The notes: generated by a model not told the origin, from the letters alone. A stretch of 64,000 bases of DNA from an uncultured Steroidobacter sp. (GCA_937958065.1 CALFXI010000058.1:17487-81486); one strand, 5' to 3'; counted from the stretch's first letter, positions 11,493 to 62,258 are shown. Made by a program: numbers and translations.

Positions 11493-11629
11493 GGATCCAA
11501 ATCCCCGAGATCGCTGTAGCCTAGCACGCACTCGACATCGTTGGCCTGCCGTGCCTCGAACGCCGGACGGCGCGCTAGCTTTTCACTACCGGCTGGACAA
11601 GCCCGCCGGGCCAACTGCACCATAGTCCC

Positions 11630-11723
11630 GGAAGAGAAACATCCCCGGCGGGGTGCCCGGACTTCAAACCCGGAGGAAGGTGCCACGCACCTTCGGTAGG
11701 TTCGACTCCTGCCTCTTCCGCCA
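11630..11723 (+). tRNA. selC: tRNA-Sec (anticodon UCA), 7/5 fold
   Basis: GGAAGAG-AAA-CATCCC CGGC GGGGTG-C-CCGGA CTTCAAA CCCGG-AG-GAAGGTGC CAC GCACCTTC-G-GTAGG TTCGACT CCTGC-CTCTTCC-G-CCA: 6-bp D stem, UCA anticodon, long variable arm, G73, encoded CCA. Confidence 0.95.
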
Positions 11724-17965: not shown

Positions 17966-18403
17966 TCAGGACGGCCGTTGCGACAGCTCGAGCCGCAGCC
18001 ACGCGCGGGCGTGGGTCCATTCGCGCTTCACGGTGTCGTGGGAAAGGCCGAGTGCCCGAGCGGTTTGTTCGATCGTGAGTCCGCCGTAGCAACGCATGGC
18101 CACGATTCGCGCCTGGCGCGGGTCCAGCGCTTCCAGACGCGACACCAATTCATGCAATGCCTCCCCATCCTCGAGTATTTCCGCGCGTGAGAGGACGCTG
18201 GCTCCCTGGGGACGTCGATCCTTCGCGCGAGCAGCACGAAACTGGCGCATGGCCGTCGCCGCAAGAGCGAAGAACTGCGCCCGCTCCTGCCAATCGATGG
18301 GAGGCGGCGCGCCTTTATCTCGCGGCCTGCGTCGCACGGTACGGACCCCTGAACCCTTCGCCACGTGCTTCCGGCGAACGCAGCAAGGTCGATTCAGCCA
18401 CAT
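17966..18403 (-). pseudogene. N-terminally truncated ECF sigma factor (TIGR02999-like)
   Basis: IDWQERAQFFALAATAMRQ and LDPRQARIVAMRCYGGLTIEQTARALGLSHDTVKREWTHARAWL retained; most of region 2 is absent in all three minus frames. Confidence 0.7.
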
Positions 18404-20465: not shown

Positions 20466-20472
20466 CGGTGGC

Positions 20473-38876: not shown

Positions 38877-38957
38877 CCGACGAGCCGTCGCACCTCAGAC
38901 GACGGCTGGAACGACAGATCGAGAACGAGCCGCGTGCGAGCGCGGCTGGGGGATGTC

Positions 38958-41900: not shown

Positions 41901-42128
41901 TTCCTGCGGACCGCAGTCGGCTTTGGGGGCGAGCCCACCTTCGTCGAGCCGTATCAACAGATCGATGCGCGCGCCAGCTTCGCGATTTCGGATCACTTCT
42001 CGGTGTTCGCCGAAGGCGTGAACCTCGGCAACGAAATCCAGCATCGCGTCGGTCGTTACCGCAACCAGATCCTGCTGCTCGAAGAAACCGGACGCCGCTA
42101 CACGATCGGCGTCCGCGCCGAATTCTGA
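38958..42128 (+). CDS. TonB-dependent transducer/receptor with N-terminal STN signalling domain
   Basis: DIPSQGLGLALQSLA...EEALTKLLAGTGL (STN); GKFPDTNIAESLQRITGVSI (glycan-type Xanthomonas/Caulobacter TBDR pattern); ends GVRAEF. Confidence 0.92.
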   Translation: MRVSVAAVCLALMGLSGTAESQAAARKQTDIPSQGLGLALQSLARERSFQLVYVSEEVDTLNTQGAVGELTPEEALTKLLAGTGLTFKYLNEHTVTILPVAPPPPARARPINAEPGEQRVPRISRPWIVKNVRLASAASAVMFGVAGGPAAAQSSAAQQNLEEVVVTGIRSSLRQAMEIKRDSDQIVDSIASESLGKFPDTNIAESLQRITGVSIDRSGGEGQGVTVRGFGPEFNTVLLNGRRLASDTGARSFNFDVLPAELISRVDVYKSATALLQEGGIGSAILLHTPRPLELGDFKSILSAKALYEDLSENTTPEVFGMISDTFADGRIGLLASASYQRRKNRSERILTDGYLTAPRDSMTLIADDLAAQGYAADDQFFIPQNLNVSPVDEDRERINVNATFQYQISDRLRLTVDGMYDQFSVFTEANSLGFFVTPSIITNAQFDEHRTATSITQTIDAAIDFTRSERDRPTDIYAGGLNLAWDVSDSVNVTLDSSWSRARSGGAEGTNVAVVGFRKDIYTLSYGPNGIPTVTGVPAADYVDPSLPVAHFNLRGTGGGPLGGGADLEDRILEHRIEAQWQPEHDVLKRVTVGGYYSEEKQRRDTRLSDNNILCMYCGYFVDIPDELMRPYNVGSGYLGGRVSVPSAWQAFDIDPLLAYLESAEAASARDAAQGLPPGSTLAELAASNGFEIHQRPDSSRVEEEVAALYADASFEGTLARMPWNLTVGARYVRTKTTAFGISQALQDLVNSGDPTLYTTVLGDPVTVSQTNQYNDFLPSLSFRLNVTDDVVLRFAASKTLTRPPLGALSPRLVIGTTRPGNLQASSGNPDLKPFESRNADLSAEWYYQENGFITVGVFYKEVENFLVNTVENRALPIADSDDLFAGYPVFEVSLLDNLESATVKGVEIGVQHSFDYLPGVWRGFGVGANATLVDSGAELNVDDVSQTFALEGLGDSYNVVGFYENGPLEVRVAWNRRERFLRTAVGFGGEPTFVEPYQQIDARASFAISDHFSVFAEGVNLGNEIQHRVGRYRNQILLLEETGRRYTIGVRAEF

Positions 42129-42227
42129 CATCGCCGTAAGCTTCAGGCCGCGGCGAGCGCTCGCGCCCGCCTTCGTTTGCAAAGTCGTTCGATTTGCTGG
42201 ACGCTATCGCGAGCGGGAGCCCGAACG

Positions 42228-43004
42228 ATGAATACCAAGCGCCGGCGAATCGCCTGGCTGATCCTATGTGTGCCGCTGTATGCGGCTTGTTCGATGACCT
42301 ACCTCGGCCAGTCCGGACGCTTGAGCAACAGCGACTGGCGCACGGCCAGTCGTGAGCCCGTCGGCCTTGCCCCGGACCCGGCCACGACCCCCGAAGCCGT
42401 CGTACAGGTGTATGCAGCACGCACCATCAATTGGAAAGGCTACTTCGGCGTGCACACCTGGATCGCCGTGAAGCGCAGCGGCGCCTCCGAATTCACGGTG
42501 CACGAAGTCATCGGCTATCGATTGCGACGAGATGGCACGACGGTCGTGTCACGCGTGCGGGCGCCCGACAGCCGTTGGTTCGGCGCCGAGCCCGACCTGC
42601 TCAGGGATGTTCGCGGTCCCGGCGTCGACGCTTTGATCGATCGCATCGAACTGGCGGTGCAGAACTATCCATACAACGGCACCTATCGCATCTGGCCCGG
42701 ACCGAACTCGAACACCTTCACCGCGTTCGTGCTCCGCGACGTCCCCGAGTTGCGCGTCGACCTGCCGCCCACGGCCATCGGCAAGGATTATCTCGGTCTC
42801 AACCCCGTGGCGCTCACGCCGAGCGGCACCGGCGCTCAACTCAATATGTTCGGCCTGGCGGGCGTCGCCGCCGGTTGGGAAGAAGGCGTGGAACTGAACC
42901 TGTTGGGCCTGACTTTCGGCGTCGATCCGGTGAGCCTGTCGATCAAGCTGCCCCTGCTCGGCCGCATCGGCCCGGACGATCATGAGCCGCGCACGATCGA
43001 GTAG
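42228..43004 (+). CDS. DUF3750-like protein
   Basis: VVQVYAAR..WKGYFGVHTWIAVK, YRIWPGPNSNTF, LPPTAIGKDY, GVELNLLGL.FGVD. Confidence 0.75.
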   Translation: MNTKRRRIAWLILCVPLYAACSMTYLGQSGRLSNSDWRTASREPVGLAPDPATTPEAVVQVYAARTINWKGYFGVHTWIAVKRSGASEFTVHEVIGYRLRRDGTTVVSRVRAPDSRWFGAEPDLLRDVRGPGVDALIDRIELAVQNYPYNGTYRIWPGPNSNTFTAFVLRDVPELRVDLPPTAIGKDYLGLNPVALTPSGTGAQLNMFGLAGVAAGWEEGVELNLLGLTFGVDPVSLSIKLPLLGRIGPDDHEPRTIE

Positions 43005-43058
43005 CCCTGGGCGCTGCGCACGGCCGCCCCCGCATGACCGCGACCGAGCCTGACGCCC

Positions 43059-43484
43059 TCATTTCGCGAACAACTGCCCGATATCCTTGAACGCCTTGAA
43101 TTCCAGCGCGTTGCCGCACGGATCCAGCAGGAACATCGTGGCCTGTTCGCCGGTTTGGCCTGGAAAGCGGATGTGCGGCTCGATCACGAAGTCGATGCCG
43201 AAGGACCGCAATCGATCGGCCAGCGCCTGCCACTGATCCCAGCCGAGCACGACGCCGAAGTGCGGCACCGGCACATCGTGACCGTCGACGGGATTTGTAT
43301 GCGCGCGCTCCTGCGACGGCGTCTTCGGATGCTCGTGAATCACCAGCTGATGACCGAAGAAGTTGAAATCGACCCATTGGGTGCTCGAACGGCCTTCGGC
43401 CAGGCCGAACACTTCGCCATAGAAGCGGCGCGCCGCGGGCAGATCGTGAACGGGAATGGCCAGGTGAAACGGTGCCAGACTCAT
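43059..43484 (-). CDS. VOC/glyoxalase family protein
   Basis: [47 protein letters not shown]. Confidence 0.9.
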
Positions 43485-43613
43485 GACTCGGCGCGGTTGC
43501 GGGAACAAAATTCATCCTAGCCGGCGGGCGCGACAGCAGACAAGAGAAATTCGTTATGCTCGCGGCCAGCCGCGCATCGATGGGCGACCGTCACACCAAC
43601 GAGGGACCTCGAC

Positions 43614-44954
43614 ATGAAGTTTGTCCTCACCTGCCTGACGACCCTGTCGCTGCTCGCCGCCGCCACGCACGCGGCCAGCGCCGACGAATGGCAATCGTTG
43701 TTCGACGGCACCTCGCTGAACGGCTGGCACCTGATCAACGGCTCGGCGAAATACGAAGTGGTCGACGGCGCCATCGTCGGCACGACGCAGGCGGGCTCGC
43801 CCAACAGTTTTCTCGCGACCGAGCGGCGCTTCGACGATTTCATCCTGGAATTCGAGGTCAAACAAACGGTCGGGCCGAGCAACAGCGGCGTGCAGTTCCG
43901 CAGCCAGAGCAACCCGGAAGTGATGCAAGGCCGCGTGCGTGGCCCGCAGATGGACCTGGATCCGTCCGAGCGCCAGTGGACCGGCGGGCTGTACGATGAA
44001 GCCGTGAGCGGCTGGTGGTATCCGGGCACGCTCAATCCCCAGCCCGGGCTGTACAGATTCGACGAATGGAATCACATCCGCATCGAGGCCGTCGGCCCGT
44101 CGCTGCGCACCTGGGTCAATGGCCAGCTGTCGGCGTACGTGCTCGATGCGACCTATAAAGAAGGTTTCATCGCGCTGCAGGTTCATTCCATCGACAAGCC
44201 CGACGAAGCCGGCCGCAAGATTCACTGGCGCAAGCTGCGCATCAAGGAACATCCGGTCGCCTCGCCCGCCGCCGCGACCATCTTCGTTCGTAACAACCTG
44301 CCCAACGATCTGAGCGAGGTCGAACGCAGGCAGGGCTGGCAGCTGCTCTGGGACGGCAGCTCCATGAGCGGCTGGCGCAGCGCCAGGCGCGACGCCCCGC
44401 CCACGCATGGCTGGCGGATCAAGGACGGAGAGCTGATCGTCACCGGCAGCGGTGGCGGCGACATCGTCACCCGGCAGACATTCCAGGCATTCGAGCTGCA
44501 GCTGGACTTCAAGCTCACGCCGGGCGCGAACAGCGGCATCAAATATTACGTGGCCGACTATGGCACGGACAGCGCGGTGGGCCTGGAATATCAGCTGCTC
44601 GATGACGAACGTCACGGCGATGCGAAGCAAGGCAAGGATGGCAATCGCACGCTCGCATCGCTGTACGATATCCAGCCGCGCGAAAGGCTGATGTCCAATC
44701 TCGGGATCGCGCCGAAAGTCGGCGAATGGCAGCATGCACGCATCGTCGCAAGGCCGGACGGCACCGTCGAGCACTGGCTCAACGGCGTGAAGGTGCTGAG
44801 CTATCAGCGCGGCTCGCAGGATTTCCAGCGCCGGGTCGCCGACAGCAAGTTCAAGGACATCGCCGGCTTCGGCCAGCTGGAACGAGGCCGGATTCTGCTG
44901 CAGGATCACGGCGACGAGGTCCGTTTCCGCAGCATCAAAATCCGCACGCTTTAG
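43614..44954 (+). CDS. Tandem DUF1080 (3-keto-disaccharide hydrolase/hydratase-like) secreted protein
   Basis: Two repeats of W..LFDG.SL.GW / NSG / EWNH.RI or EWQHARI / G.IALQ.H or GRILLQDHG. Confidence 0.9.
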   Translation: MKFVLTCLTTLSLLAAATHAASADEWQSLFDGTSLNGWHLINGSAKYEVVDGAIVGTTQAGSPNSFLATERRFDDFILEFEVKQTVGPSNSGVQFRSQSNPEVMQGRVRGPQMDLDPSERQWTGGLYDEAVSGWWYPGTLNPQPGLYRFDEWNHIRIEAVGPSLRTWVNGQLSAYVLDATYKEGFIALQVHSIDKPDEAGRKIHWRKLRIKEHPVASPAAATIFVRNNLPNDLSEVERRQGWQLLWDGSSMSGWRSARRDAPPTHGWRIKDGELIVTGSGGGDIVTRQTFQAFELQLDFKLTPGANSGIKYYVADYGTDSAVGLEYQLLDDERHGDAKQGKDGNRTLASLYDIQPRERLMSNLGIAPKVGEWQHARIVARPDGTVEHWLNGVKVLSYQRGSQDFQRRVADSKFKDIAGFGQLERGRILLQDHGDEVRFRSIKIRTL

Positions 44955-44963
44955 GAACGAGCG

Positions 44964-46112
44964 ATGAGCAACACCGATCGACGCACTTTTCTGCAATCCG
45001 CCGGCCTGGCAGGGATCGCTTCCTCCATGTCATCGACCGCGCTCGCGCAGAGCACGCCCGCGCGCGAAAAAGCAAAGACCGAGCCGCCCGCGAGCAAACA
45101 TTCCATTCGCTTCGGCGTGATCGGCCTCGATCATGCGCACATTTACAGCATGACCGCCGCCGTGCAACGAGGCGGTGGCCAGCTGGTGGCCGTTTACGGC
45201 TCGGACCCGAAACAGATCGCCGATTTTCGCGCGAAGTTCGGCGACGTGAAGGTCGCACGCAGCGAACACGAGATCATCGAGGACAAGTCCATTCAGCTGA
45301 TTGCCGGTGCGCCCATTCCCGATCAGCGCGCACCGCTCGGCATTCGCGCCATGCGAGCGGGCAAGGATTACCTGGCGGACAAGCCCGGCATCGTCACGCT
45401 GGAACAGCTCGCCGAGGTACGCCGGACGATCGAGGCAACCGGTCGAAAATTCGCGATCATGTATTCGGAACGATTGGAAGTCCGCTCGGCCGTATATGCA
45501 GGCGAGCTGATTCGCCAGGGTGCGATCGGTCGCGTCATTCAGACCGTCAATCTCGCGCCTCATCGCGTGAATGCGCCGTCGCGCCCGGACTGGTTCTGGG
45601 ACAAGGCGCGCTACGGCGGCATCCTCACCGATATCGGCTCGCATCAGGCCGATCAGTTTCTGTACTACACGAACAGCACCCAGGCGCGCGTCGTCGCGGC
45701 CCAGACGGGCAACCTGGCGCATCCCAACCATCCGAAGTTCGAAGACTTCGGCGACATGATGGTGACCGGCAACGGCGGCACCGGCTACGTGCGAGTCGAT
45801 TGGTACACGCCGGACGGCTTGAGCACCTGGGGCGACGGGCGTTTGTTCATCCTGGGCACCGAGGGCTACATCGAGCTGCGCAAATACATCAACGTCGCAT
45901 CGGGGTTGTCGGGAGGCGATCACCTGTACATCGTCGATCGCAAACAGGCGCGCTACATCGATTGCAAGGACGTGGCCCTGCCGTTCGGGCCGCAATTCGT
46001 CACCGACATCGTCGAACGCACGCAGACGGCGCAGGACCAGAAACAGGCGCTGCTGGCCGCCGAGCTGGTGCTGACCGCGCAGAGGGACGCCACCCGCCCG
46101 ACCCTGAGCTGA
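44964..46112 (+). CDS. Tat-exported Gfo/Idh/MocA oxidoreductase
   Basis: DRRTFL; FGVIGLDHAH, DYLADKP, GGILTDIGSHQAD. Confidence 0.88.
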   Translation: MSNTDRRTFLQSAGLAGIASSMSSTALAQSTPAREKAKTEPPASKHSIRFGVIGLDHAHIYSMTAAVQRGGGQLVAVYGSDPKQIADFRAKFGDVKVARSEHEIIEDKSIQLIAGAPIPDQRAPLGIRAMRAGKDYLADKPGIVTLEQLAEVRRTIEATGRKFAIMYSERLEVRSAVYAGELIRQGAIGRVIQTVNLAPHRVNAPSRPDWFWDKARYGGILTDIGSHQADQFLYYTNSTQARVVAAQTGNLAHPNHPKFEDFGDMMVTGNGGTGYVRVDWYTPDGLSTWGDGRLFILGTEGYIELRKYINVASGLSGGDHLYIVDRKQARYIDCKDVALPFGPQFVTDIVERTQTAQDQKQALLAAELVLTAQRDATRPTLS

Positions 46113-46116
46113 AAAT

Positions 46117-46194
46117 TGGCCTGACCACGTTAGCGATCCCAACACCGCATTGACAGGCTCGCCCGGCTGATCTAACAATCCACTGGTCAGGCCA
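46117..46194 (+). promoter_or_regulatory. sigma70-like promoter bracketed by two inverted FadR/GntR-type operators
   Basis: TGGCCTGACCA (46117-46127) and its reverse complement TGGTCAGGCCA (46184-46194) flank TTGACA-N17-TAACAA (46150-46178). Confidence 0.65.
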
Positions 46195-46351
46195 CTTTCC
46201 CATGCCGAAGGTGGCCCGGTCAGGGGGAATCTCCGGTCAGCGATGTCGCTTCGAAAGGCGGCACGGCCGCGCTCGCCCGCGGCAAACCACAACTTCCTCC
46301 TGAAGCGATTCGGCCCTGCACGTCGTGGTCCACGAACTGGGAGGAGCTGAA

Positions 46352-49189
46352 ATGGCAAGCATCACGTCGGCCAGCGCGGGAGTGTTGTCTTTGTGTCTGA
46401 GCACCGCCGCCTTCGCCCAGCAAACATCCGGCGAAGGTCAGCTCGAAGAAGTCGTCGTCACCGGCTTTCGCGAGAGTCTCGAAGTCTCGCTCGCGGCCAA
46501 GCGCGATTCGGTGAACTTCACCGATTCCATCTCCGCCGAGGATGTCGGCAAGCTGCCGGACAACAATCTCGCCGAAGCCCTGCAGCGGGTGCCTGGCGTG
46601 CAGATCTCCCGCACCAACGGCGAAGGCCAGCAGATCTCGCTGCGTGGCATGGGACCGAGCTTCGCTCGCGTCCTGCTCGATGGCATGCCGGTCTCGGCGG
46701 CGTCCGAGGGCAGCGTCGATCAGCAAGCACGCAATCGCGAGTTCGATTTCGATCTGCTGCCCTCGGAAATCTTCAGCATGCTGCAGGTTTCTAAAACACC
46801 GACGGCGAGCACCGTCGAAGGCGGCCTGGCAGGCACGGTAGATCTGCGCACGCCGCGCCCGTTCGACTACAACGGTTTCCAGGCGAGCTATCAGCTGCAA
46901 GCCATGTATCAGTCCTCGTCCGAGGAAGTCGATCCGCGCGGCAGCTTTCTCGTCAGCAAGAATTGGGATGGCAAGTTCGGCGCGCTGCTGAGCGTTTCCA
47001 TGTCGCAACGAACTTTCCGCACCGATGGCTGGAGCTCGCAAGGCTGGACATCGGGGCGCGTGCCGGGCAATCCAGCGACGCCGACCGACCTCTACCAGGC
47101 GGGTTTCGACTGGAACCTGCCGAGCGTCAGCGCCTCGAGCGCCAATCAGAGCCCCGACTTCGTCAATGAATCGGGCTTGACCAACGCACAGCTCGCCAAC
47201 ACGCAGTTGCCGCGGCTCGGGCGGCCCGAAGTGCAACTCGGCGATCGCGACCGCATCGGCGGCACGCTGGCCTTGCAATGGGCGCCGAGCGACCGGCTGC
47301 TGTTCAACCTGGATGTGATCTACGCCAAGCTGGAATCCGAGTTCGATCGTTACACCAACAATCTGCTGGTGAGAAACACCAACCTGCAAACCGCGGGACC
47401 GACCGGCTTCGGCTACATCACGCCCAGCAACTTCTCGATCGACGAGAACAACACGCTGACCCACGGCACGCTGCTCAACGCCAAATTCTGGTCGGAAAAT
47501 CGCCTGTTCGAACAGGAGTCCGACTTCAAGCACATCGGCCTGGGCGGCTCCTGGCAGATCACGGACAACATCGGCCTGGACGTGAAAGCGTCCAAGGCGG
47601 AATCCGACTTCCGCTGGCGCATGACCACCTACCTGTTCCTGTCGCGCCCGGGCACGGTCGACATCGACGTGCCCGGTAACGGCATTCCCGTCATCGCCCC
47701 GCAGCTCGACCTGACCGACGTCGGCAACTGGCAGTTCGACACCGTGCGCGTGCAGCCCCGCACCCGCGAGGAAGAAAATGAAAACCTCGCGCTCGATCTC
47801 AAATTCGGCGACGACGAACGGAACATTCGAGTCGGCGCGCTGGCCAACAAGTTCTTCCGCGAACGCCTCACCTACTCCTCGTCCGTCGGCGTGACGCAAG
47901 GCACCGCCCTGACACCCTTTGGCTATACCGGCGGCGCGAATCTCAACCAGTTCAACATCGCCAGCTTCGCCAGGGTGGTGCCAGTGAACTATGGCGAACA
48001 CTTCGACCGGCCGGCCGGCTACAGCCGCTGGATCGTGAGCGACCTCGATGCGTTCAGCCGGATGTTGAATCCGAACGCGCTGGACGCCGCCGCCAATCTG
48101 GATTTCCAGAATTCCGGCAGCTTCGAAGAGCAGAACCTGTCGGCCTACATCGAAGCGAACACAGCATTGGACCTGTGGGGCCGCACCCTGCGCGTCAACG
48201 CCGGCGTGCGCTACGTGCAGACCGAGCACGAGATGGCTGGCTTCATCCGCGTGCCCTCCACGCCGCCGGCGGCGAACAATCTGTTCGGTCTGCGCAAGCA
48301 AGACTACGGCCGCAACGTCATCGACGGCGATTATTCCGAAGTGCTGCCGTCGCTGAACCTCGCGTATGACATCGGCGACTCGGTGCTGGCTCGTTTCTCG
48401 CTGTCACGAGCGCTGACCCGACCCAACCCCGCGGACTTGCAGCCGTTCACTTCCATCAGCACCGCCGGCGTGGTCTCCCAGGGCAATCCGAACCTGGATC
48501 CCTACATTTCCGATCAACTCGACGGCGGCCTGGAATGGTACTTCTCCGAAGGCGCGGTGTTGGGCGGCAATCTGTTCTACAAGGAAATCACCGGCTTCGT
48601 GCAGCGGCGGAATATCCCGCAGCCGTTCCGCAACGCCGGCATCGCGCTCGATACCATCACCGATCCGACCATCCTCGCGCTGTTGCCGAATGGACTCGAC
48701 ACGATCCTGTTGTTCAACACGCCGGTGAACATCGAAGCGACCACGTATCTGAAGGGCCTGGAACTGCTGTACCAGCAACGTCTCGACAACCTGCTGGAAG
48801 GCTCGGGCGTCACGCTGAACTACACGCGCCTGGATTCCGGCAGCCAGGTCGTCCTCGGCCTGGCGAAGCACAACCTCAACGCCGTTGCGTACTATGAACA
48901 GGAGCGCTTCGCCCTGCGCCTGAGTTACAACTATCGCTACGACTACGTGGAATGCGAGAACAACTGCGGCTCGACCTCGCCGCAGACCGGCTTCCGGCTC
49001 CAGGCGGGTTATCTGGACTTCAACGGCAGCGTAAGCTTCACGGCGCTCGGTCAGGACCTGACGCTGAGCCTGGAAGTGCTCAATCTCATCGACGAGGAAG
49101 AGTATTCGTTCTACGGTTATGAGAACCGTGCGAATACATTGAACAAACCCGGCCGCCAGTTCATTCTGGGGATTCGCGGCCAGTTCTAG
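46352..49189 (+). CDS. TonB-dependent receptor (glycan-type)
   Basis: LEEVVVTGFR, DVGKLPDNNLAEALQRVPGVQI, ends ILGIRGQF; GGAGG RBS. Confidence 0.93.
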   Translation: MASITSASAGVLSLCLSTAAFAQQTSGEGQLEEVVVTGFRESLEVSLAAKRDSVNFTDSISAEDVGKLPDNNLAEALQRVPGVQISRTNGEGQQISLRGMGPSFARVLLDGMPVSAASEGSVDQQARNREFDFDLLPSEIFSMLQVSKTPTASTVEGGLAGTVDLRTPRPFDYNGFQASYQLQAMYQSSSEEVDPRGSFLVSKNWDGKFGALLSVSMSQRTFRTDGWSSQGWTSGRVPGNPATPTDLYQAGFDWNLPSVSASSANQSPDFVNESGLTNAQLANTQLPRLGRPEVQLGDRDRIGGTLALQWAPSDRLLFNLDVIYAKLESEFDRYTNNLLVRNTNLQTAGPTGFGYITPSNFSIDENNTLTHGTLLNAKFWSENRLFEQESDFKHIGLGGSWQITDNIGLDVKASKAESDFRWRMTTYLFLSRPGTVDIDVPGNGIPVIAPQLDLTDVGNWQFDTVRVQPRTREEENENLALDLKFGDDERNIRVGALANKFFRERLTYSSSVGVTQGTALTPFGYTGGANLNQFNIASFARVVPVNYGEHFDRPAGYSRWIVSDLDAFSRMLNPNALDAAANLDFQNSGSFEEQNLSAYIEANTALDLWGRTLRVNAGVRYVQTEHEMAGFIRVPSTPPAANNLFGLRKQDYGRNVIDGDYSEVLPSLNLAYDIGDSVLARFSLSRALTRPNPADLQPFTSISTAGVVSQGNPNLDPYISDQLDGGLEWYFSEGAVLGGNLFYKEITGFVQRRNIPQPFRNAGIALDTITDPTILALLPNGLDTILLFNTPVNIEATTYLKGLELLYQQRLDNLLEGSGVTLNYTRLDSGSQVVLGLAKHNLNAVAYYEQERFALRLSYNYRYDYVECENNCGSTSPQTGFRLQAGYLDFNGSVSFTALGQDLTLSLEVLNLIDEEEYSFYGYENRANTLNKPGRQFILGIRGQF

Positions 49190-49198
49190 GAAGATGAC

Positions 49199-50572
49199 AT
49201 GCGACCACGACACCCTGCGAGCTCTCTTTCCCGCCGGACCTTTGGCAAGACACTGATGGGGTTGTCGTTGCCGCTGATATTGCCCAGCCGCTTGCTGGGC
49301 GCCGATGCACCCAGCAATCGCATCCGGGTCGGGCAGATCGGCTGCGGCCGGATCGCGCGCGACCATGACATGCCCGGCGTGTTGAAGTCCGGGCTCGCCG
49401 ACATCGTCGCGGTTTGCGACGTCGATGCAAATCGCGCGGCCCAGGGCAAGACACGCGTCGAGGAGCTGTATCGCGAGATCAATGCGCCGCTGCCGACCGT
49501 CAGCGTGCACGCCGATTACCGCGAAATCCTGCAGCGTAAGGACATCGACGCTGTCGTGATCAGCACCCCGGATCATCAGCACGCCGAGCCGGCGCTGGCG
49601 GCGATATTGGCAGGCAAGGATGTTTATTTGCAGAAACCCTTCACGATGACCATCGCGGAAGGCAAGGTGCTGCTGGATGCAGTGGAACGCAGCAGGCGCA
49701 TCCTGCAGGTCGGCAGCCAGCAACGTTCGTGGCAGCAGTTCCGTCAGGCCGCCGAACTGGTCCGCTCCGGGCGCATCGGGCAGGTGCGCAGCGTCGAGAT
49801 CGGCTTGCCCATCGATCCCACCGCGCCAGACGATCCGGCGCAGCCGGTGCCGAAAGAGTTGGATTTCGATCGATGGATCGGACCGGCCGAGTTTGCTTAT
49901 TACACCGAGCAGCGCGTGCATCCGCGCTCGGGCTACTCGCGGCCCGGCTGGCTGCGTAATGAATCGTTCTGTCTCGGCATGATCACCGGCTGGGGCTCGC
50001 ATCATTACGACACCATGCATTGGGCGCTCGATCTGGAATCGAGCGGTCCCTCACGCGTCGAAGGCACCGCGGAGTTTCCGACAAACAAGATCTGGAACGT
50101 GCATGGCGCCTATGACGTGAAGCTCACCTATCCGGGCAACATCCGCGTGCATGTTTCCGACAAGAATCCGAATGGCCTGAAGTTCGTCGGCGACGACGGC
50201 TGGATCTGGGTCACCCGCGACGGCCAGGCCACCGCCAGCGATCCCAAATCCGGACAGACCCTGCCGCCGCTCGACGCAAGCGACAAACGCCTGCTCGATC
50301 CGAAGGGTTTGAAGGTCGAACTGCCTCGTAGCGACAGTCATCACAAGAACTGGCTGGAGAGCGTGCGCTCGCGCAAGGAGCCGCTCGCTCCCGCGCACAT
50401 CGCTCATCGCAGCGGCAGTGCGTGCATCGTCAGCTGGATCGCGATGAAGCTGCAGCGGCCGCTCACCTGGGATGTGAAATCCGAAAGCTTCCTGAACGAC
50501 GCCGAAGCCAACAAATGGCTGTCCCGTCCCGAGCGCGCCCCGTACGGCGTGACGCGATTGATCAAGAGCTGA
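49199..50572 (+). CDS. Tat-exported Gfo/Idh/MocA oxidoreductase
   Basis: SRRTF; IRVGQIGCG, VISTPDHQHA, DVYLQKP, QVGSQQRS, GMITGWGSHH.D. Confidence 0.9.
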   Translation: MRPRHPASSLSRRTFGKTLMGLSLPLILPSRLLGADAPSNRIRVGQIGCGRIARDHDMPGVLKSGLADIVAVCDVDANRAAQGKTRVEELYREINAPLPTVSVHADYREILQRKDIDAVVISTPDHQHAEPALAAILAGKDVYLQKPFTMTIAEGKVLLDAVERSRRILQVGSQQRSWQQFRQAAELVRSGRIGQVRSVEIGLPIDPTAPDDPAQPVPKELDFDRWIGPAEFAYYTEQRVHPRSGYSRPGWLRNESFCLGMITGWGSHHYDTMHWALDLESSGPSRVEGTAEFPTNKIWNVHGAYDVKLTYPGNIRVHVSDKNPNGLKFVGDDGWIWVTRDGQATASDPKSGQTLPPLDASDKRLLDPKGLKVELPRSDSHHKNWLESVRSRKEPLAPAHIAHRSGSACIVSWIAMKLQRPLTWDVKSESFLNDAEANKWLSRPERAPYGVTRLIKS

Positions 50573-57310: not shown

Positions 57311-58555
57311 ATGCGCATCAAAGAACGCACCAATGGTTTCAGCTCTCCGTTCTGGTACACGGCAGCAGCCGCGCTGCTAGCTGCAAGTTTCTCGCCTCGC
57401 AATGCCTCGGCAGTAGAAGTCTCCGCCGGCGACTGGAAGCTGACGGCCAAGGGCAATGTGAACGTTTATTACATTCGTTCCAGCTGCGAAGACGAACGCT
57501 CGGCCGGCGTGACCGGCGGACTCGCCTGTCGCGGCGCCGCCGGAGAAGAAAAATCGTCCTCGGTCAGCAACGGTCTGCTGCCCGCGGCGCTCGCGATCAG
57601 TGCTGCCACGACCCAGAAGAGCCTGGACCTGTCGGTCACTTTCGGATTCTATCCAGGCATCAGCACCAACGACGGCAGTCCGAACCTGCAGCAAGGCGCC
57701 ACCGAACTGAATACCGCGCTGGGCACGACCGCCATCGACATGCGTCAGGTGTTTCTGACCATCGGCAACGACAAGATCGGCGAGTTCAAGCTCGGTCGCG
57801 ACCTCGGCCTGTTCGGCAGCGATGCGATCCTGAACGACATGACCTTGCCGGGCGTCGGCGGGGGCAATGGCAATTATGCGGCGCCGGCGAATACGTCGTT
57901 GGGCTCGATCGGACTCGGCTATATCTACGCGGACTGGTACGCCCAGATGAACTACACGACGCCGAGCCTGGCCGGTTTCAAAGCGACGATCGGCATCTTC
58001 GATCCGCTCGAGCCCATCGGACAAGCCATTCCTACGCCCAAACGCACGCCCGGCTACCACGGCAAGATCGCCTACAAGAGCGACTTGTTCTATGCGTCGG
58101 CGAGCTACATGTCGCAGAAGCAGAATGATCCGCTCACCCTGCGTGACTTCAGAAGCCACGGCTGGGATGCCGGCGGCAAGGTGATGCTGTACGGGTTCGA
58201 AGTGCTCGGCTGGTATTACAACGGCAAGGGCATGGGAACGACCGCGTTGTTCCTGTTCGGCGCCACGCCCCTCAGCCAGGAACGCGATTCGGATGGTTTC
58301 CTCGCCCAGGCCACCTACAAGTTCCACGACCTCAAGGTCGGCGTCAATTACGGCCGGAGCAATCTGGATCTCGCCTCCGGCGAGCTGCCTTCGGACCTGG
58401 TGAGGAGAAACGAGAAATACACGGCGGGTGTCTACTACTCGCTCACCGAGAACCTGACGCTGATCGGCGAGTACTCCGATATCAAAGCCAGGTCTCACAA
58501 CAACATCGAGAACAAGAGCAACAACTTCAACATCGGTGCTTATCTGTCGTTCTGA
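57311..58555 (+). CDS. Outer-membrane porin
   Basis: Signal peptide, alternating beta strands, GEFKLGRDLGLFG, C-terminal NIGAYLSF. Confidence 0.85.
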   Translation: MRIKERTNGFSSPFWYTAAAALLAASFSPRNASAVEVSAGDWKLTAKGNVNVYYIRSSCEDERSAGVTGGLACRGAAGEEKSSSVSNGLLPAALAISAATTQKSLDLSVTFGFYPGISTNDGSPNLQQGATELNTALGTTAIDMRQVFLTIGNDKIGEFKLGRDLGLFGSDAILNDMTLPGVGGGNGNYAAPANTSLGSIGLGYIYADWYAQMNYTTPSLAGFKATIGIFDPLEPIGQAIPTPKRTPGYHGKIAYKSDLFYASASYMSQKQNDPLTLRDFRSHGWDAGGKVMLYGFEVLGWYYNGKGMGTTALFLFGATPLSQERDSDGFLAQATYKFHDLKVGVNYGRSNLDLASGELPSDLVRRNEKYTAGVYYSLTENLTLIGEYSDIKARSHNNIENKSNNFNIGAYLSF

Positions 58556-58593: not shown

Positions 58594-58947
58594 ACCACAA
58601 ACCGACCTGCAGTACTGCTCGGGCGCAGGTGGCGCGCTCGATAATCCATGATGCCGGTGCCAGAGCAGTCGCGAGCAACCTGCCTCAAGTCATGACGGGC
58701 GCTGCCGATCCTCGCAGCAATCAAATAGAAACATTGGCTTGAGCCGCTCTGGCGTGGCTCGCGCGAAATTAACATTCGAGGGCATGCTCGCCCAGTAATG
58801 GTGATGCCATTCGACGTCGTGCTATATCCCCTGCGCCGTCAATTCCGTGATGAGCGATCCATAGCCGCAGAGCGGAACGCGGCAGCAGCTCCGCGTGCCG
58901 TTGGCACGTGCGAATCATCAACATGAATCGATGCTCAGGGGATACAC

Positions 58948-59814
58948 ATGGAAAGGAAGAACTCCCGCCGCAGATGGGCCATTGGACTGGGTTTGTTGAT
59001 CCTGGCCACCAGCGCGCACGCGCAAACGAATCCCTATCAGAAAGGGCCTGATCCAACCTCCGCTTCACTGAACGCAACCAGCGGTCCATTCACCGTCGCC
59101 ACCTCCAGCGTGTCCAGTCTCGTGGTCGGCTTCGGTGGCGGCACGATCTACTACCCGACGACCACCGGCACTTACGCCGTGCTCGCGATTTGCCCGGGCT
59201 TCACCGCGACTCAATCGTCCATCGCGTGGCTGGGGCGCCGGATCGCAACGCACGGCTTCGTCGTGATCACGATCGATACGAACACCACGCTGGACCAACC
59301 GCCGAGCCGCGCGACGCAGTTGATGGCCGCGTTGAACTACGTGACCAATTCGAGCAGCGCCACGGTTCGCAGCCGAGTCGATGCATCACGTCGCGGCGTT
59401 GCCGGCCACTCGATGGGCGGCGGCGGAACGCTGTATGCCGCACGTGACAATCCTTCGCTGAAAGCGGCGGTGCCCTTGACCGCATGGAGCACATTGAAAT
59501 CTTTCTCGAGCATGCAGGTGCCAACGCTCGTCATCGGCGCGGAGGCGGACAGCGTCGCCTCGGTGTCATCGCATTCCATTCCGTTCTACAACAGCCTGTC
59601 GAGCTCGCTCGACAAGGCGTATGCGGAGTTGAATGGGGCCTCGCACTTCGCGCCCAACACCACCAATACGCCGATCGGCCGTTATTCGGTAGCCTGGGTG
59701 AAACGCTTCATGGATAACGACACTCGCTATACGCCATTCCTGTGCGGCGCGCCTCATCAGAGCTACGCCACGTCGCTGGTGTTCTCGGACTATCGATCGA
59801 CCTGTCCGTACTGA
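58948..59814 (+). CDS. Secreted type I PET hydrolase/cutinase-like alpha/beta hydrolase
   Basis: [47 protein letters not shown] (Ser), LTAW, ADSVA (Asp), GASHFAPN (His), [13 protein letters not shown]...TCPY. Confidence 0.93.
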
Positions 59815-59830: not shown

Positions 59831-59864
59831 GGATGGCGGCCCTGGGTGCCGCCATCCTCTTTTG
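59831..59864 (+). terminator. Intrinsic terminator between hydrolase and chaperone genes
   Basis: GGATGGCGGC-CCTGGGT-GCCGCCATCC-TCTTTTG. Confidence 0.7.
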
Positions 59865-59883: not shown

Positions 59884-60576
59884 ATGCGAACCCGTCCGCT
59901 TGTCGTCATTTGTTTGATGGTTGCAGTGGGCATTGCGGTGATTTGGTGGGTGCGGACCAATGGCCCGCAACCGGTTGCGTCGCGCGCGGCGGACGAACCT
60001 GCAGCGACGACGCAAGCAGCAGTAAAGCCCAACGAAGAGATCGACGCGACCGAGCCCAGCCGTCCCATCACGCCGGCGCCCGCGCCAGACTCGCCGCCGG
60101 CCAGAACCGACGGCGTCCACCCGTTCCGCGTCGACGGCACAGGCAAACTCGTTATGGACGAACAAACCCGACTCAACATGGAAGCGTTGTTCGCACACAC
60201 CGACGCCGCCGATCTCTCCCAAGCGCAGCAGAACGCCACGGCAACGCTGCCGCCTGCCGCAGCAACCGAAGCGGCGGCCTTGCTCCAGCAGTACGACAAT
60301 TATTCAAAAGCACAGCGACAGTCGTATCCGCCTGGCAACGCACCCGCCACTGAAGAGGCGGCGCTGGCCGAGCTCGACGGCTTGCATGCATTACGGGTCG
60401 CGCACTTCGGACCGGAAGTCGCCAAGGCGCTGTATGGCGCCGAGGAAGACCTCACCCGCTCGCTGATCGAGCTCATGCGCCTGGAAAAAGATCAAAGCCT
60501 CACGTTGCAGGAAAAAGCCGAGCGCGCCCAGCGGTTGCATGACGAGATCGAGGCCCGGCAACAGGGCCGCCGTTAG
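59884..60576 (+). CDS. Lipase chaperone (foldase)-like membrane-anchored protein
   Basis: N-terminal TM, Pro/Ala linker, helical C-terminus LLQQYDNY...LHALRVAHFGPEVAKALYGAEE; position directly after a secreted esterase. Confidence 0.72.
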   Translation: MRTRPLVVICLMVAVGIAVIWWVRTNGPQPVASRAADEPAATTQAAVKPNEEIDATEPSRPITPAPAPDSPPARTDGVHPFRVDGTGKLVMDEQTRLNMEALFAHTDAADLSQAQQNATATLPPAAATEAAALLQQYDNYSKAQRQSYPPGNAPATEEAALAELDGLHALRVAHFGPEVAKALYGAEEDLTRSLIELMRLEKDQSLTLQEKAERAQRLHDEIEARQQGRR

Positions 60577-60633: not shown

Positions 60634-61158
60634 ATGACGCGCCTGCGCACCATTGCTGTAGTGTTTCTTGTTTGCATGGCAAGCATGTTCGCCGCCGCAG
60701 CTGGCGCGAAAGAGCCGACGCGACTCGTCGTTCTCGACATCGAGCTCACGGGCGACCTCGGCGGCCCCGAGTTCGCGGCCGAGCATGAAGCTCGACTGAA
60801 ACTGGCAAGCGCACGATTGCGAGAAGAGCTCGCCGCCACCGGCCTCTATGAGCTGGTGGACACGAGCGCAGCCAGCGACACCCTCGCTCAGCTCAAATCC
60901 CAACATCGGTATCTGCACGACTGCAATGGCTGCGACCTCGAGCTCGGTCGCCGTCTGAACGCGGATCAGGTGATGGTCGCGTGGGTGTATCGAGTCAGCG
61001 GCCTGGTTCTGACATTGACCTACGAAATTCACGACGTCGCTTCCGGGCAGATCGTCGGCCGGAAATCCTTCGGCTTCCGGGGTGACAACGACACAGCGTG
61101 GACGCGCGCCATCGACTACATGGTTCGCGACCTGAAAGCGGCGCAACCCGCGCGCTAG
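60634..61158 (+). CDS. DUF3280-like periplasmic protein
   Basis: Signal peptide; VVLDIEL, CNGC, VYRVSGLVL, FRGDNDTAWTRAI. Confidence 0.75.
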   Translation: MTRLRTIAVVFLVCMASMFAAAAGAKEPTRLVVLDIELTGDLGGPEFAAEHEARLKLASARLREELAATGLYELVDTSAASDTLAQLKSQHRYLHDCNGCDLELGRRLNADQVMVAWVYRVSGLVLTLTYEIHDVASGQIVGRKSFGFRGDNDTAWTRAIDYMVRDLKAAQPAR

Positions 61159-62258
61159 AAGAAACCGTGCACCTGCGCGAAGTAGAACCTGCGATTCTGC
61201 TGATCGTTCTGCGGAATGCCGTCATAGATCCGAGCCCCGACGCGCAGCTGCAGGAACTGGATCGGGAAATGTTCCCAGACCAGACTGAAGCGATTCTGCT
61301 CGTCCTCGTCCACGTCCGTGTCCGGATCGAAATACTCCGCCGTCAGCTTCAGGTTCTGGCCTTTGACCATCAGCCAGTTCGCTTCGAGCAACCCGACCCA
61401 TTGCTTGCGCTCGGTCGGACCGAGCGTTCTGTCCATGATGTAGTCGGCCTCGCCCAGCCACACGACGGGCCCGATGCGAACGCCGGCGAACAAACCTTGC
61501 ATCTGGCGATTGCCCGCATCCGTGTGATTGTGGTTGAACCCTGCGCCGAACCTCCAGACGTTCTGCACATACTCGCCACGCAAGCTCACTTGCTTGCCCT
61601 CGTCGGTCTCGTCCCCGCCCGCGGCGCCATTGGTCACGGCGAGCTGCGCGGTCCAGCTCGTTGCCTCGTATCCGACCTGCACGCCTCGATCCGGCGTCGT
61701 GAAGTTGATGCCGGTCACCTGTCGAATGAATGCGGTGTCGTCCTGGATGCGCAATCCATAGGGCAGAAAAAACTGCCCGGCCTGAAAATTCCACTGCTGG
61801 CCCTTGCTCGTGTAACGCGCGAACGCTTCGAGATTGGTGCTGCCGCCTGGCGCGAGACGCTGATCGACATAAACCGCGAGCCGGTCGGGAATCGGAATGA
61901 CGGCGAGATACGCCCGCATCTCCTCGATGTCGAACTCATTCGTCGAGGGGTTATGCGGAACATCGGTGTACGTTGCATTCGTGCGCAAGTTCCCTCCGAG
62001 CGCCACGAACGAATTCAACATGCCGGTCCACGCCTCCGTTCCGGCCCCTTCGATGCGACGCGCCGGCAATGCGGTCTGCGCATAGGCGTTCCCGAATACA
62101 TTGCGCATGCCGCCGCCGGTCGGGTTGAAATGACAGCTGGCGCATTTCAAGCCTTCGCGGACAGCGAGGTACGGCTCGGCATGGGCGATATGAAGAGCGG
62201 AGGCGACGACCAGTGCGACGAGCGCGCAGACTTTGCGAAGCACGGTGCCCGACTTCAT
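61155..62258 (-). CDS. Monoheme cytochrome c-porin fusion (Cyc2-like outer-membrane cytochrome)
   Basis: Signal AHA then EPYLAVREGLKCASCH; remainder amphipathic beta strands with GQFFLPYG; ends in Phe. Confidence 0.7.
   Translation of the reverse strand: MKSGTVLRKVCALVALVVASALHIAHAEPYLAVREGLKCASCHFNPTGGGMRNVFGNAYAQTALPARRIEGAGTEAWTGMLNSFVALGGNLRTNATYTDVPHNPSTNEFDIEEMRAYLAVIPIPDRLAVYVDQRLAPGGSTNLEAFARYTSKGQQWNFQAGQFFLPYGLRIQDDTAFIRQVTGINFTTPDRGVQVGYEATSWTAQLAVTNGAAGGDETDEGKQVSLRGEYVQNVWRFGAGFNHNHTDAGNRQMQGLFAGVRIGPVVWLGEADYIMDRTLGPTERKQWVGLLEANWLMVKGQNLKLTAEYFDPDTDVDEDEQNRFSLVWEHFPIQFLQLRVGARIYDGIPQNDQQNRRFYFAQVHGFF

What the first reader, a model, noticed from the sequence alone, without database searches (positions are those of the whole stretch)
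58948..59814. New type I PETase/cutinase candidate
Seen: full Ser-Asp-His triad, oxyanion/subsite residues F (PGFT), M (SMG), W (LTAW), His at the W159 position and F after the catalytic His, and a C-terminal Cys pair only, plus one extra Cys in AICPG. Known: this layout matches TfCut2/LCC-type PET hydrolases and lacks the IsPETase active-site disulfide. Inference: a probable polyester hydrolase from a lineage other than the usual actinobacterial or Burkholderiales sources.
Basis: partly seen in the sequence, partly recalled or inferred. Interest (0 to 1): 0.78.

Follow-up and report, generated by a model that had tools for sequence, protein, structure and literature searches.

The report
Steroidobacter cutinase-like polyesterase with chaperone gene
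The gene is a real, intact, secreted cutinase/PET-hydrolase-family esterase in a soil Steroidobacter genome. It sits next to a small lipase-chaperone gene and is an uncharacterised but ordinary member of a very large, well-known enzyme family.

Summary
Window 58948..59814 (+) is a 288-aa ORF that matches Pfam PF12740 (PETase) end to end (E 4e-119). It has the Ser155-Asp201-His233 triad in GHSMGGGG, F85/M156 at the oxyanion positions, W180, His154 at the IsPETase-W159 position and Phe234 after the catalytic His. It lacks the active-site disulfide and the 3-residue loop insertion. It keeps the C-terminal Cys266/Cys286 pair and has one unpaired Cys82.

This is the type I (TfCut2/LCC-like) layout. 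The AlphaFold model (pLDDT 90.6) superposes on PET hydrolase structures at TM 0.91-0.98.

The host is a Steroidobacter (Gammaproteobacteria). The locus is syntenic with S. flavus and S. gossypii, so the "unusual lineage" claim holds.

"New" needs tempering. Orthologues at 84-92% identity are already in public databases, and more than 5,000 relatives were found. The closest tested proteins are reconstructed ancestral PETases (70-71%) and Thermobifida cutinases (61-62%). PET activity is plausible but untested.

One addition: a short membrane-anchored Lif-type lipase chaperone gene (59884..60576) lies directly downstream, behind a conserved hairpin. The same pairing occurs in the related proteobacterial loci examined, including the IsPETase locus. 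Verdict: new member of a known kind, of moderate to low interest.

The parts
58937..58942 (+). Shine-Dalgarno-like AGGGGA, 5 nt upstream of the ATG of the hydrolase gene
   Evidence: Read directly from the sequence.
58948..59814 (+). PETase-family (type I, cutinase-like) serine polyester hydrolase gene, 288 aa including stop
   Evidence: ORF. Pfam PF12740 E 4e-119, full length. PDB matches. AF2 pLDDT 90.6. Foldseek TM 0.91-0.98 to PET hydrolases. GC3 0.77.
58948..59022 (+). Predicted Sec-type signal peptide [25 protein letters not shown], with cleavage after AHA before QTNPY
   Evidence: Inferred from the sequence: positive n-region, hydrophobic core, AXA site. AF2 pLDDT is low over residues 1-25. 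Mature PDB constructs begin at the aligned position. The RR pair is not conserved in orthologue P0021, which argues against Tat export.
59191..59193 (+). Cys82 (AICPGFT): unpaired cysteine at the end of strand beta3, just before the oxyanion loop
   Evidence: There are only 3 Cys in the protein. The position is Cys in 53 and Ser in 68 of 121 closest relatives. It is Ser in TfCut2 and LCC and Val in IsPETase.
59200..59202 (+). Phe85, at the oxyanion-hole/subsite I position (IsPETase Y87)
   Evidence: Alignments. The position is F in 99 and Y in 22 of 121 relatives.
59407..59415 (+). His154-Ser155-Met156: the type I His at the W159 position, the nucleophile Ser and the oxyanion Met, within GHSMGGGG
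   Evidence: Invariant in 121/121 relatives.
59485..59487 (+). Trp180 (IsPETase W185), aromatic clamp of subsite I
59548..59550 (+). Catalytic Asp201
59644..59649 (+). Catalytic His233 followed by Phe234 (the type I residue at IsPETase S238)
59743..59805 (+). Cys266...Cys286: the C-terminal cysteine pair conserved in the family. The enclosed loop has 19 residues, 2-4 more than in TfCut2, LCC or IsPETase.
   Evidence: Both Cys are invariant in 121/121 relatives. The insertion SYATSLVF is shared with Steroidobacter and type-I-like Burkholderiales relatives. Bond formation itself was not tested.
59831..59857 (+). GC-rich hairpin GGATGGCGGC-loop-GCCGCCATCC followed by TCTTTTG, between the hydrolase stop and the chaperone start
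   Evidence: Terminator-like site with 10 pairs, 8 of them G-C. The same stem is present at the same place in S. flavus, S. gossypii and MAG L002, and a different GC hairpin is there in L003 and L005.
59884..60576 (+). Short Lif-type lipase chaperone (foldase) gene, 230 aa, with N-terminal membrane anchor MRTRPLVVICLMVAVGIAVIWWV, a Pro/Ala-rich linker and a helical domain. It lacks the C-terminal mini-domain of canonical Lif.
   Evidence: Pfam PF03280 E 2.3e-12, profile positions 1-95 of 192. A profile of 14 orthologues hits B. glumae Lif 2ES4_D (E 1e-8), P. aeruginosa LipH 9G8U_B and its MD1 domain 6GSF/5OVM. An orthologue lies adjacent to the hydrolase gene in 22 related proteobacterial loci.

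Best explanation
The gene encodes a secreted serine esterase of the polyesterase-lipase-cutinase family (Pfam PETase, type I layout) in a soil Steroidobacter.

Proposed route and mechanism:
1. The precursor is exported through Sec and its 25-residue signal peptide is removed (inferred).
2. The protein folds in the periplasm with help from the membrane-anchored short Lif-type chaperone encoded directly downstream (inferred from conserved adjacency and from what is known of LipA/LipH and of the chaperone gene next to IsPETase).
3. The C-terminal Cys266-Cys286 disulfide forms (inferred).
4. The enzyme is released from the cell, probably by a type II secretion system (inferred; no such genes are in the window).
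5. Outside, Ser155, activated by His233 and Asp201, attacks ester bonds of a polymer chain. The chain lies in a shallow groove lined by F85, M156, W180, V203 and F234. The backbone NH groups of F85 and M156 stabilise the oxyanion (shown only by homology and by the model).

The natural substrates are most likely aliphatic polyesters of plant or microbial origin, such as cutin and suberin. The enzyme is probably also active on synthetic polyesters such as PCL, PBAT and BHET, and has weak to moderate mesophilic activity on amorphous PET.

A conserved hairpin between the two genes probably lets the cell make much more enzyme than chaperone.
For: - Family and fold: Pfam PF12740 at full length, E 4e-119; 183 PDB relatives, nearly all of those listed being PET hydrolases or cutinases; AF2 pLDDT 90.6 with TM 0.91-0.98 and rmsd 1.0-1.7 A to TfCut2, Thermobifida cutinases, PET40, PHL7, LCC and Cut190.
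- All catalytic and subsite residues are present, and they are invariant in 121 relatives.
- The best PDB matches, ancestors 55_547 and 35_442 (70-71% identity), are described as active ancestors, and 55_547 was assayed on PET at 60 C (PMC12077509).
- Chaperone: Pfam Lipase_chap above cutoff and a profile match to crystallised Lif proteins.
- Chaperone linkage: a Lif-like gene is adjacent to the hydrolase gene in all 6 Steroidobacteraceae loci (L001-L005, L117), in 7 type-I-like Burkholderiales or other proteobacterial loci, and in the IsPETase and Rhizobacter loci in divergent orientation. It is absent from all actinomycete loci.
- LipA needs membrane-anchored LipH in the periplasm before type II secretion (abstract of PMC13381987).
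- The hairpin is conserved across species.
- The gene is native to the genome: host-like GC and codon bias, and synteny with two Steroidobacter species.
Against: - No activity data exist for this protein or for any member of its immediate clade in the literature I could search.
- Family membership does not guarantee PET hydrolysis: the ancestors span a wide range of activities, and family members include enzymes described as lipases (1JFR).
- The chaperone lacks the C-terminal mini-domain and the canonical RxxFDY(F/C)L(S/T)A motif, so it may not act like LipH.
- Many relatives of this family have been produced in recombinant form and crystallised (the PDB entries; that this needed no partner chaperone is my recollection), so dependence on it may be partial.
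- Some proteobacterial relatives (Marinobacter, the Noviherbaspirillum group) have no Lif gene within 8 kb.
- No type II secretion genes and no cutin or fatty-acid catabolic genes lie nearby.
Confidence: 0.8

Rival explanations
1. It is a true lipase or short-chain esterase (triacylglycerols or soluble esters) with no meaningful activity on polymers. On this reading the Lif partner reflects a lipase-like physiology.
For: JGI annotates many orthologues as 'triacylglycerol lipase'. The family includes the Streptomyces exfoliatus lipase 1JFR (61% identity). The partner belongs to the lipase-specific foldase family.
Against: All residues that line the open polymer groove of type I PET hydrolases are conserved. 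The model shows no lid (fold match over the whole length). Nearly all structurally studied relatives at 55-71% identity are polyester hydrolases. The IsPETase locus carries the same kind of chaperone.
Confidence: 0.12
2. It is a dedicated PET-adapted enzyme comparable to IsPETase (recent adaptation to plastic).
For: Membership of the PETase Pfam family and conserved subsite I residues.
Against: It lacks every IsPETase-specific adaptation: W159, S238, S214/I218, the active-site disulfide and the extended loop. The gene is vertically inherited and syntenic in soil Steroidobacter species. No MHETase-like or terephthalate catabolic genes were found among the window genes I scanned (not every gene of the 64 kb was scanned).
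Confidence: 0.03
3. The gene is an inactive remnant or is not expressed.
For: No sigma-70-like promoter was detected upstream.
Against: The ORF is intact and full length, with an RBS and host-like codon bias. Every catalytic residue is conserved across 121 relatives. The gene pair is conserved across genera. The promoter scan is a crude consensus match.
Confidence: 0.03

Closest known systems
Type I PET hydrolases/cutinases of actinomycetes (TfCut2 and Thermobifida Cut1/Cut2, PET40, LCC, PHL7, Cut190)
   Same: Same fold (TM 0.93-0.98) and same triad. They share His at the W159 position, Phe after the catalytic His, H209/F213 next to the Trp clamp, a single C-terminal disulfide pair and no extended loop. 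F at the Y87 position is common among them.
   Different: Only 55-64% identity. The host is Gram-negative, with a Sec signal peptide. The gene is paired with a Lif-type chaperone, which no actinomycete locus has. The disulfide-enclosed C-terminal loop is 2-4 residues longer. Ala replaces Pro before the Trp clamp (LTAW), and Ser replaces Pro in DSVAS. These enzymes are thermophilic; this host is presumably mesophilic (not tested).
Reconstructed ancestral PETases 55_547 and 35_442 (PDB 8ETX, 8ETY; Sci Adv 2025, PMC12077509)
   Same: They are the best matches in the PDB (70-71% identity, E ~1e-118), with type I active-site residues and the same CPY C-terminus.
   Different: They are synthetic inferred sequences, not natural enzymes. 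They lack the 4-residue C-terminal insertion and have Tyr at the Y87 position and Ser at the position of C82.
IsPETase of Piscinibacter (Ideonella) sakaiensis and other type IIb enzymes
   Same: Proteobacterial, 52% identical, same triad, W185, M161 and C-terminal disulfide. The mature N-terminus (AQTNPY) and the [10 protein letters not shown] segment are shared almost verbatim. There is an adjacent Lif-like chaperone gene (L081 382..1173), reported as important for growth on PET.
   Different: IsPETase has W159, S238, S214/I218, the C203-C239 disulfide and a 3-residue loop insertion, all absent here. Its chaperone gene is divergently oriented rather than downstream, and is only 23-26% identical to this one.
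Lipase/foldase pairs of family I.1/I.2 (P. aeruginosa LipA-LipH, B. glumae LipA-LipB)
   Same: A secreted alpha/beta-hydrolase gene is followed by a gene for a membrane-anchored Lif homologue. A profile of the chaperone hits 2ES4_D, 9G8U_B and the MD1 domain.
   Different: The client is a cutinase-like enzyme, not a family I lipase. The chaperone has 230 aa against more than 300 for the crystallised Lif constructs (2ES4_D 332, 9G8U_B 302). It ends near residue 225 of 2ES4_D, so the C-terminal mini-domain is missing, and it lacks the canonical MD1 motif.
Roseateles depolymerans TB-87 esterases Est-H/Est-L with the chaperone-like gene est-Ch (recalled from memory; not retrievable in the library)
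   Same: As I recall it, PETase-family polyester-degrading esterases are encoded next to a chaperone-like gene in a betaproteobacterium.
   Different: Not checked here. No sequence or paper was available to me, so this is a lead and not a test.

Membership tests
Pfam PF12740 PETase (polyesterase-lipase-cutinase alpha/beta-hydrolases) | Full-length match to the family HMM above the gathering score | tested here: met
   397.2 bits against a cutoff of 28, covering profile positions 2-263 of 263.
Pfam PF12740 PETase (polyesterase-lipase-cutinase alpha/beta-hydrolases) | Ser-Asp-His triad with the Ser in G-x-S-M-G | tested here: met
   S155 in GHSMGGGG, D201 and H233, aligned to IsPETase S160/D206/H237 and invariant in 121 relatives.
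Pfam PF12740 PETase (polyesterase-lipase-cutinase alpha/beta-hydrolases) | Lid-less alpha/beta-hydrolase fold superposable on solved members | tested here: met
   AF2 pLDDT 90.6. Foldseek TM 0.91-0.98, with rmsd 1.0-1.7 A to all but the domain-swapped ancestral entries.
Type I PET hydrolase (TfCut2/LCC type; classification as I recall it from Joo et al. 2018) | No active-site disulfide (IsPETase C203-C239 positions are not Cys) | tested here: met
   A198 and A235 at those positions.
Type I PET hydrolase (TfCut2/LCC type; classification as I recall it from Joo et al. 2018) | No 3-residue extension of the loop after the catalytic His | tested here: met
   The loop has 9 residues, as in LCC and TfCut2, against 12 in IsPETase.
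Type I PET hydrolase (TfCut2/LCC type; classification as I recall it from Joo et al. 2018) | His at the W159 position and Phe at the S238 position | tested here: met
   H154 and F234.
Type II PET hydrolase (IsPETase-like) | Second disulfide next to the active site, plus the extended loop | tested here: not met
   Both are absent. The protein is not filed here.
Verified PET hydrolase (functional class, e.g. a PAZy entry) | Experimentally shown release of MHET/TPA/BHET from PET | not testable with these tools
   No data were found for this protein or its clade.
NCBIfam NF051441 BHET hydrolase BdeA (equivalog) | Score at or above the curated cutoff | tested here: not met
   412 bits against a cutoff of 520.
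Lipase-specific foldase Lif (neighbour gene 59884..60576) | Match to Pfam PF03280 above gathering, and homology to crystallised Lif proteins | tested here: met
   47.7 bits against 25.7. Profile hits: 2ES4_D E 1e-8, 9G8U_B E 7e-8, MD1 domain 6GSF E 2e-6.
Lipase-specific foldase Lif (neighbour gene 59884..60576) | N-terminal membrane anchor with the folding domain in the periplasm | tested here: met
   MRTR followed by the hydrophobic stretch PLVVICLMVAVGIAVIWWV, read from the sequence. Topology is inferred from the positive-inside rule.
Lipase-specific foldase Lif (neighbour gene 59884..60576) | Complete domain set, including the C-terminal mini-domain MD2 | tested here: not met
   Only profile positions 1-95 of 192 are matched. 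The alignment to 2ES4_D ends at residue 225 of 332. All 14 aligned orthologues are equally short, at 214-242 aa for the aligned portions.
Lipase-specific foldase Lif (neighbour gene 59884..60576) | Conserved MD1 motif RxxFDY(F/C)L(S/T)A (from my knowledge of Lif proteins) | tested here: not met
   The corresponding helix reads TRLNMEALFA. Only a T-R-x-x-x-E pattern is largely conserved in the clade (T nearly invariant, R in most, E invariant).

The most novel reading that the evidence does not exclude
The Steroidobacter enzyme may belong to a proteobacterial 'type I-like' clade that sits between actinobacterial cutinases and the type II/IsPETase lineage. In that clade, a short Lif-type steric chaperone would be a co-evolving and functionally required folding partner of PETase-family enzymes in Gram-negative bacteria generally, and not only in P. 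sakaiensis. If so, the chaperone would be a neglected determinant of the yield and activity of proteobacterial PET hydrolases. This hydrolase-hairpin-chaperone cassette would then be a simple natural system for studying chaperone-assisted folding of a cutinase.
Probability: 0.3. Interest if true: 0.6.

Novelty: new member of a known kind. Interest (0 to 1): 0.33.

Why it matters
As an enzyme candidate it adds one more uncharacterised type I-like polyesterase to a family with thousands of sequenced members and dozens of solved structures. It would matter in practice only if assays showed unusual activity or stability.

Its evolutionary position and context are of more interest. It comes from a Gram-negative soil lineage with no characterised member. 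In a simple distance tree it groups with type-I-like Burkholderiales enzymes, next to the type II clades. That fits the fact that reconstructed ancestors are its best structural matches.

It is also paired with a truncated Lif-type chaperone in a cassette conserved from Steroidobacterales to the IsPETase locus. This offers a testable explanation for how Gram-negative bacteria fold and secrete these enzymes. It also suggests an obvious experiment, co-expression of the chaperone, for groups that struggle to produce proteobacterial PET hydrolases.

Tried and rejected
- Tat export. The n-region SRRRW resembles a twin-arginine motif. However, the signal peptide is short (25 aa), and orthologue P0021 has FHRGW with no RR. 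A periplasmic foldase also implies export of unfolded protein. Rejected in favour of Sec.
- Second disulfide through Cys82. Rejected: the protein has only three Cys, and the position alternates Cys/Ser among relatives.
- Recent horizontal acquisition. Rejected: there is no GC anomaly, codon bias is host-like, and the locus is syntenic with two Steroidobacter species.
- BHET-hydrolase equivalog. The score is below the NCBIfam cutoff.
- Single-sequence search of the chaperone against the PDB found nothing meaningful. Only the profile of 14 orthologues reached Lif structures.
- The simple terminator scan did not report the intergenic hairpin in S. flavus, S. gossypii or L002 because their T-tracts are weaker. 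Direct folding showed that the stem is conserved.
- Literature. Searches for Steroidobacter with PET hydrolase, PETase or cutinase returned papers where, in the two I opened, Steroidobacter appears only for rubber degradation or as a community taxon. The Roseateles depolymerans chaperone paper was not retrievable. 'PETase + foldase' returned nothing relevant. The reference behind 'recently recognized' could not be retrieved. PDB entries 9PM1/9PM2 (rank 6-7) could not be traced to a paper or organism.
- Model coordinates are not exposed, so triad and disulfide distances could not be measured.

Full report
**1. The observation**

Window 58948..59814 (+) is an intact ORF of 288 codons plus stop. 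It starts at the first possible start codon after an upstream in-frame stop. An AGGGGA ribosome-binding sequence lies 5 nt upstream. Its third-position GC (0.77) matches the other genes of the window.

To map the residues I aligned the protein with three references. The T. fusca cutinase was translated from locus L034. The correspondence in IsPETase numbering is as follows.

| IsPETase | Window protein |
|---|---|
| Y87 | F85 |
| W159 | H154 |
| S160 | S155 |
| M161 | M156 |
| W185 | W180 |
| C203 | A198 |
| D206 | D201 |
| S214 | H209 |
| I218 | F213 |
| H237 | H233 |
| S238 | F234 |
| C239 | A235 |
| C273 | C266 |
| C289 | C286 |

The 3-residue loop insertion of IsPETase is absent. The protein has three cysteines only (82, 266, 286), so C82 is unpaired.

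**2. What it is**

- The protein matches Pfam PF12740 (PETase) over the whole profile, at E 4e-119.
- Its best PDB matches are 8ETX to 8EU1, followed by Thermobifida cutinases, TfCut2, PET40, PHL7, Cut190 and LCC.
- 8ETX and 8ETY are reconstructed ancestors 55_547 and 35_442 of PET-degrading cutinases. The paper describes both as active ancestors, and 55_547 was assayed on PET at 60 C (PMC12077509). [quoted passage not shown]
- An AlphaFold2 model built on 54 homologues has mean pLDDT 90.6 and pTM 0.87. Only the signal peptide is poorly defined.
- Foldseek places the model on these structures with target-normalised TM 0.91-0.98 and rmsd about 1.0-1.7 A (apart from the domain-swapped ancestral entries, 4.6 A). 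Identities are 70-71% to the ancestors, 61-64% to Thermobifida cutinases and PET40, 59% to PHL7 and 55-57% to LCC and Cut190.
- NCBI's equivalog model for BHET hydrolase BdeA scores 412 bits, below its cutoff of 520.

**3. Whose gene it is**

The closest proteins are from Steroidobacter flavus (92%), S. gossypii (89%) and Steroidobacteraceae metagenome bins. Next come Burkholderiales (Hydrogenophaga, Aquabacterium, Rubrivivax; 66-74%), and then actinomycetes (58-65%).

The flanks of the gene are collinear with S. flavus at 76-82% DNA identity. The shared order is a pentapeptide-repeat gene, a porin, the hydrolase, the chaperone and an outer-membrane protein. Two small differences exist:
- S. 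flavus has an AraC-type regulator and a 1018-aa gene inserted before the hydrolase.
- The window has a DUF3280 gene inserted after the chaperone.

GC content shows no anomaly. The window therefore comes from a Steroidobacter-like gammaproteobacterium (order Steroidobacterales), and the gene is vertically inherited there.

The claim of novelty is weaker. Orthologues are already public, one with a UniRef name that begins 'PET hydrolase/cutinase-like', and 5,598 relatives were scored in one search.

**4. Place in the family**

I built a neighbour-joining tree of 132 sequences from the fetched loci plus references. The Steroidobacter sequences sit beside a group of Burkholderiales and other proteobacterial sequences (L006-L009, L017, L043, L111). 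These share all type I residues. Together the two groups lie next to the type II clades on one side and LCC and the actinomycete type I enzymes on the other. This is a distance tree with midpoint rooting and no support values, so the placement is only indicative. It does agree with reconstructed ancestors being the best PDB matches.

Among 121 close relatives, the triad, H154, M156, W180, H209, F213 and both C-terminal cysteines are invariant. F85 alternates with Y, and C82 alternates with S at 53:68. The 'extra Cys' is thus a common Ser/Cys variant at the end of strand beta3 and not a new structural feature. Clade-specific details are a 4-residue insertion in the disulfide-enclosed C-terminal loop, LTAW in place of LTPW, and DSVAS in place of DS(I/V)AP.

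**5. The neighbour gene**

Sixty-nine bases downstream, 59884..60576 (+) encodes a 230-aa protein. It has an N-terminal membrane anchor, a Pro/Ala-rich linker and a helical region that matches Pfam Lipase_chap (E 2.3e-12, profile positions 1-95 of 192).

A profile of 14 orthologues hits three crystallised foldases: the Burkholderia glumae lipase chaperone (2ES4_D, E 1e-8, residues 21-225 of 332), P. aeruginosa LipH (9G8U_B) and its MD1 domain (6GSF, 5OVM). The protein is therefore a short Lif homologue that lacks the C-terminal mini-domain.

A Lif-like ORF lies next to the hydrolase gene in the following loci:
- every Steroidobacteraceae locus, downstream on the same strand;
- the type-I-like Burkholderiales loci, in the same arrangement;
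- the IsPETase locus of P. sakaiensis and the Rhizobacter type IIb loci, adjacent on the opposite strand.

It is absent from the Marinobacter loci, the Noviherbaspirillum/RIFCSPLOWO2 group and all actinomycete loci. One weak match exists in an Oleispira locus.

Chaperone divergence tracks hydrolase divergence. Between the window and S. gossypii, identity is about 77% for the chaperone over the aligned C-terminal part and 89% for the hydrolase. Against the Burkholderiales type-I-like loci the figures are 28-43% and 59-74% (hydrolase identity for the MAG locus L111 was not measured). Against the IsPETase locus they are 23-26% and 52%.

[quoted passage not shown] The pairing is therefore known for IsPETase. 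Its breadth across Proteobacteria is what the present comparison adds.

**6. The intercistronic hairpin**

Between the two genes lies a 10-bp GC-rich stem (GGATGGCGGC / GCCGCCATCC) followed by TCTTTTG (59831-59857). The same stem with different loops occupies the same place in S. flavus, S. gossypii and MAG L002. L003 and L005 have a different GC hairpin there. I read this as a leaky terminator or transcript-stabilising element that favours the enzyme over the chaperone. This is an inference.

**7. Mechanism proposed**

1. Sec export and signal-peptide cleavage after AHA25 (inferred).
2. Folding in the periplasm assisted by the anchored short Lif (inferred from conserved linkage, and from the LipA/LipH paradigm).
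3. Formation of the C266-C286 disulfide (inferred).
4. Release from the cell, probably by type II secretion (inferred; no such genes are in the window).
5. Hydrolysis of polyester chains by the S155/H233/D201 triad, with the oxyanion hole formed by the backbone amides of F85 and M156 (by homology and the model).

The natural substrates are probably cutin- or suberin-like or microbial aliphatic polyesters. Activity on synthetic aliphatic-aromatic polyesters and some activity on amorphous PET are plausible for a type I enzyme but are untested.

The surrounding genes are porins, TonB-dependent receptors, sugar oxidoreductases and an M28 peptidase. They say nothing specific about substrate.

**8. 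Rivals**

- A plain lipase or esterase without polymer activity (about 0.12).
- A PET-specialised enzyme like IsPETase (about 0.03; all IsPETase-specific features are absent).
- A silent or defunct gene (about 0.03; the ORF is intact and conserved).

**9. Novelty and verdict**

The sequence observation is right and the family assignment is right. The lineage is uncommon for this family and has no characterised member in the literature I could search.

The protein is nevertheless an ordinary, already-catalogued member of a very well-studied family. Whether it hydrolyses PET usefully cannot be known without an assay. It is a new member of a known kind. I score interest at about 0.33, mostly for the conserved short-Lif partnership and the position of the clade between type I and type II enzymes.

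Noticed in passing
window 9025..11723: Selenocysteine machinery cluster: a tRNA-Sec gene (11630-11723, +; Rfam 65 bits, ARAGORN anticodon TCA) lies next to selA (10086-11531, -; Pfam SelA E 8e-155) and an AIR-synthase-family gene (9025-10089, -). I read the latter as selD-like from its position only. Whether a selenoprotein gene with an in-frame TGA lies nearby was not checked.
   Followed up: partly
window 18315..21750 (-): A C39-peptidase ABC exporter (716 aa) plus a HlyD-family adaptor (425 aa). This is the usual export pair for double-glycine leader peptides or bacteriocins. No substrate peptide gene was looked for.
   Followed up: no
window 60634..61158 (+): A DUF3280 (PF11684) gene is inserted between the chaperone and the outer-membrane protein gene. 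It is absent at this position in S. flavus and S. gossypii.
   Followed up: partly
L117 5600..9804 (S. flavus): S. flavus carries an AraC-family regulator and a 1018-aa protein without Pfam hits between the porin and the hydrolase gene. The window lacks both. The regulator might control the hydrolase in that species.
   Followed up: no
window 38934..50572: A carbohydrate-uptake-like cluster: two TonB-dependent receptors (one with an STN domain), a 3-keto-disaccharide hydrolase-domain protein, two GFO/IDH/MocA oxidoreductases, a DUF3750 protein and a glyoxalase-family protein.
   Followed up: no
L082, L083, L084, L086, L088 (Rhizobacter/Burkholderiales MAG loci): Several type IIb loci carry two or three tandem PETase-like genes. 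L082, L086 and L088 also carry two Lif-like genes each, which suggests the genes were duplicated together.
   Followed up: partly
window 61155..62258 (-) and 57311..58555 (+): The hydrolase-chaperone pair is bracketed by two outer-membrane beta-barrel genes. Upstream is a Porin_4 gene and downstream is a weak Porin_O_P-like gene. This arrangement is conserved in S. flavus. Whether they take up hydrolysis products is unknown.
   Followed up: no
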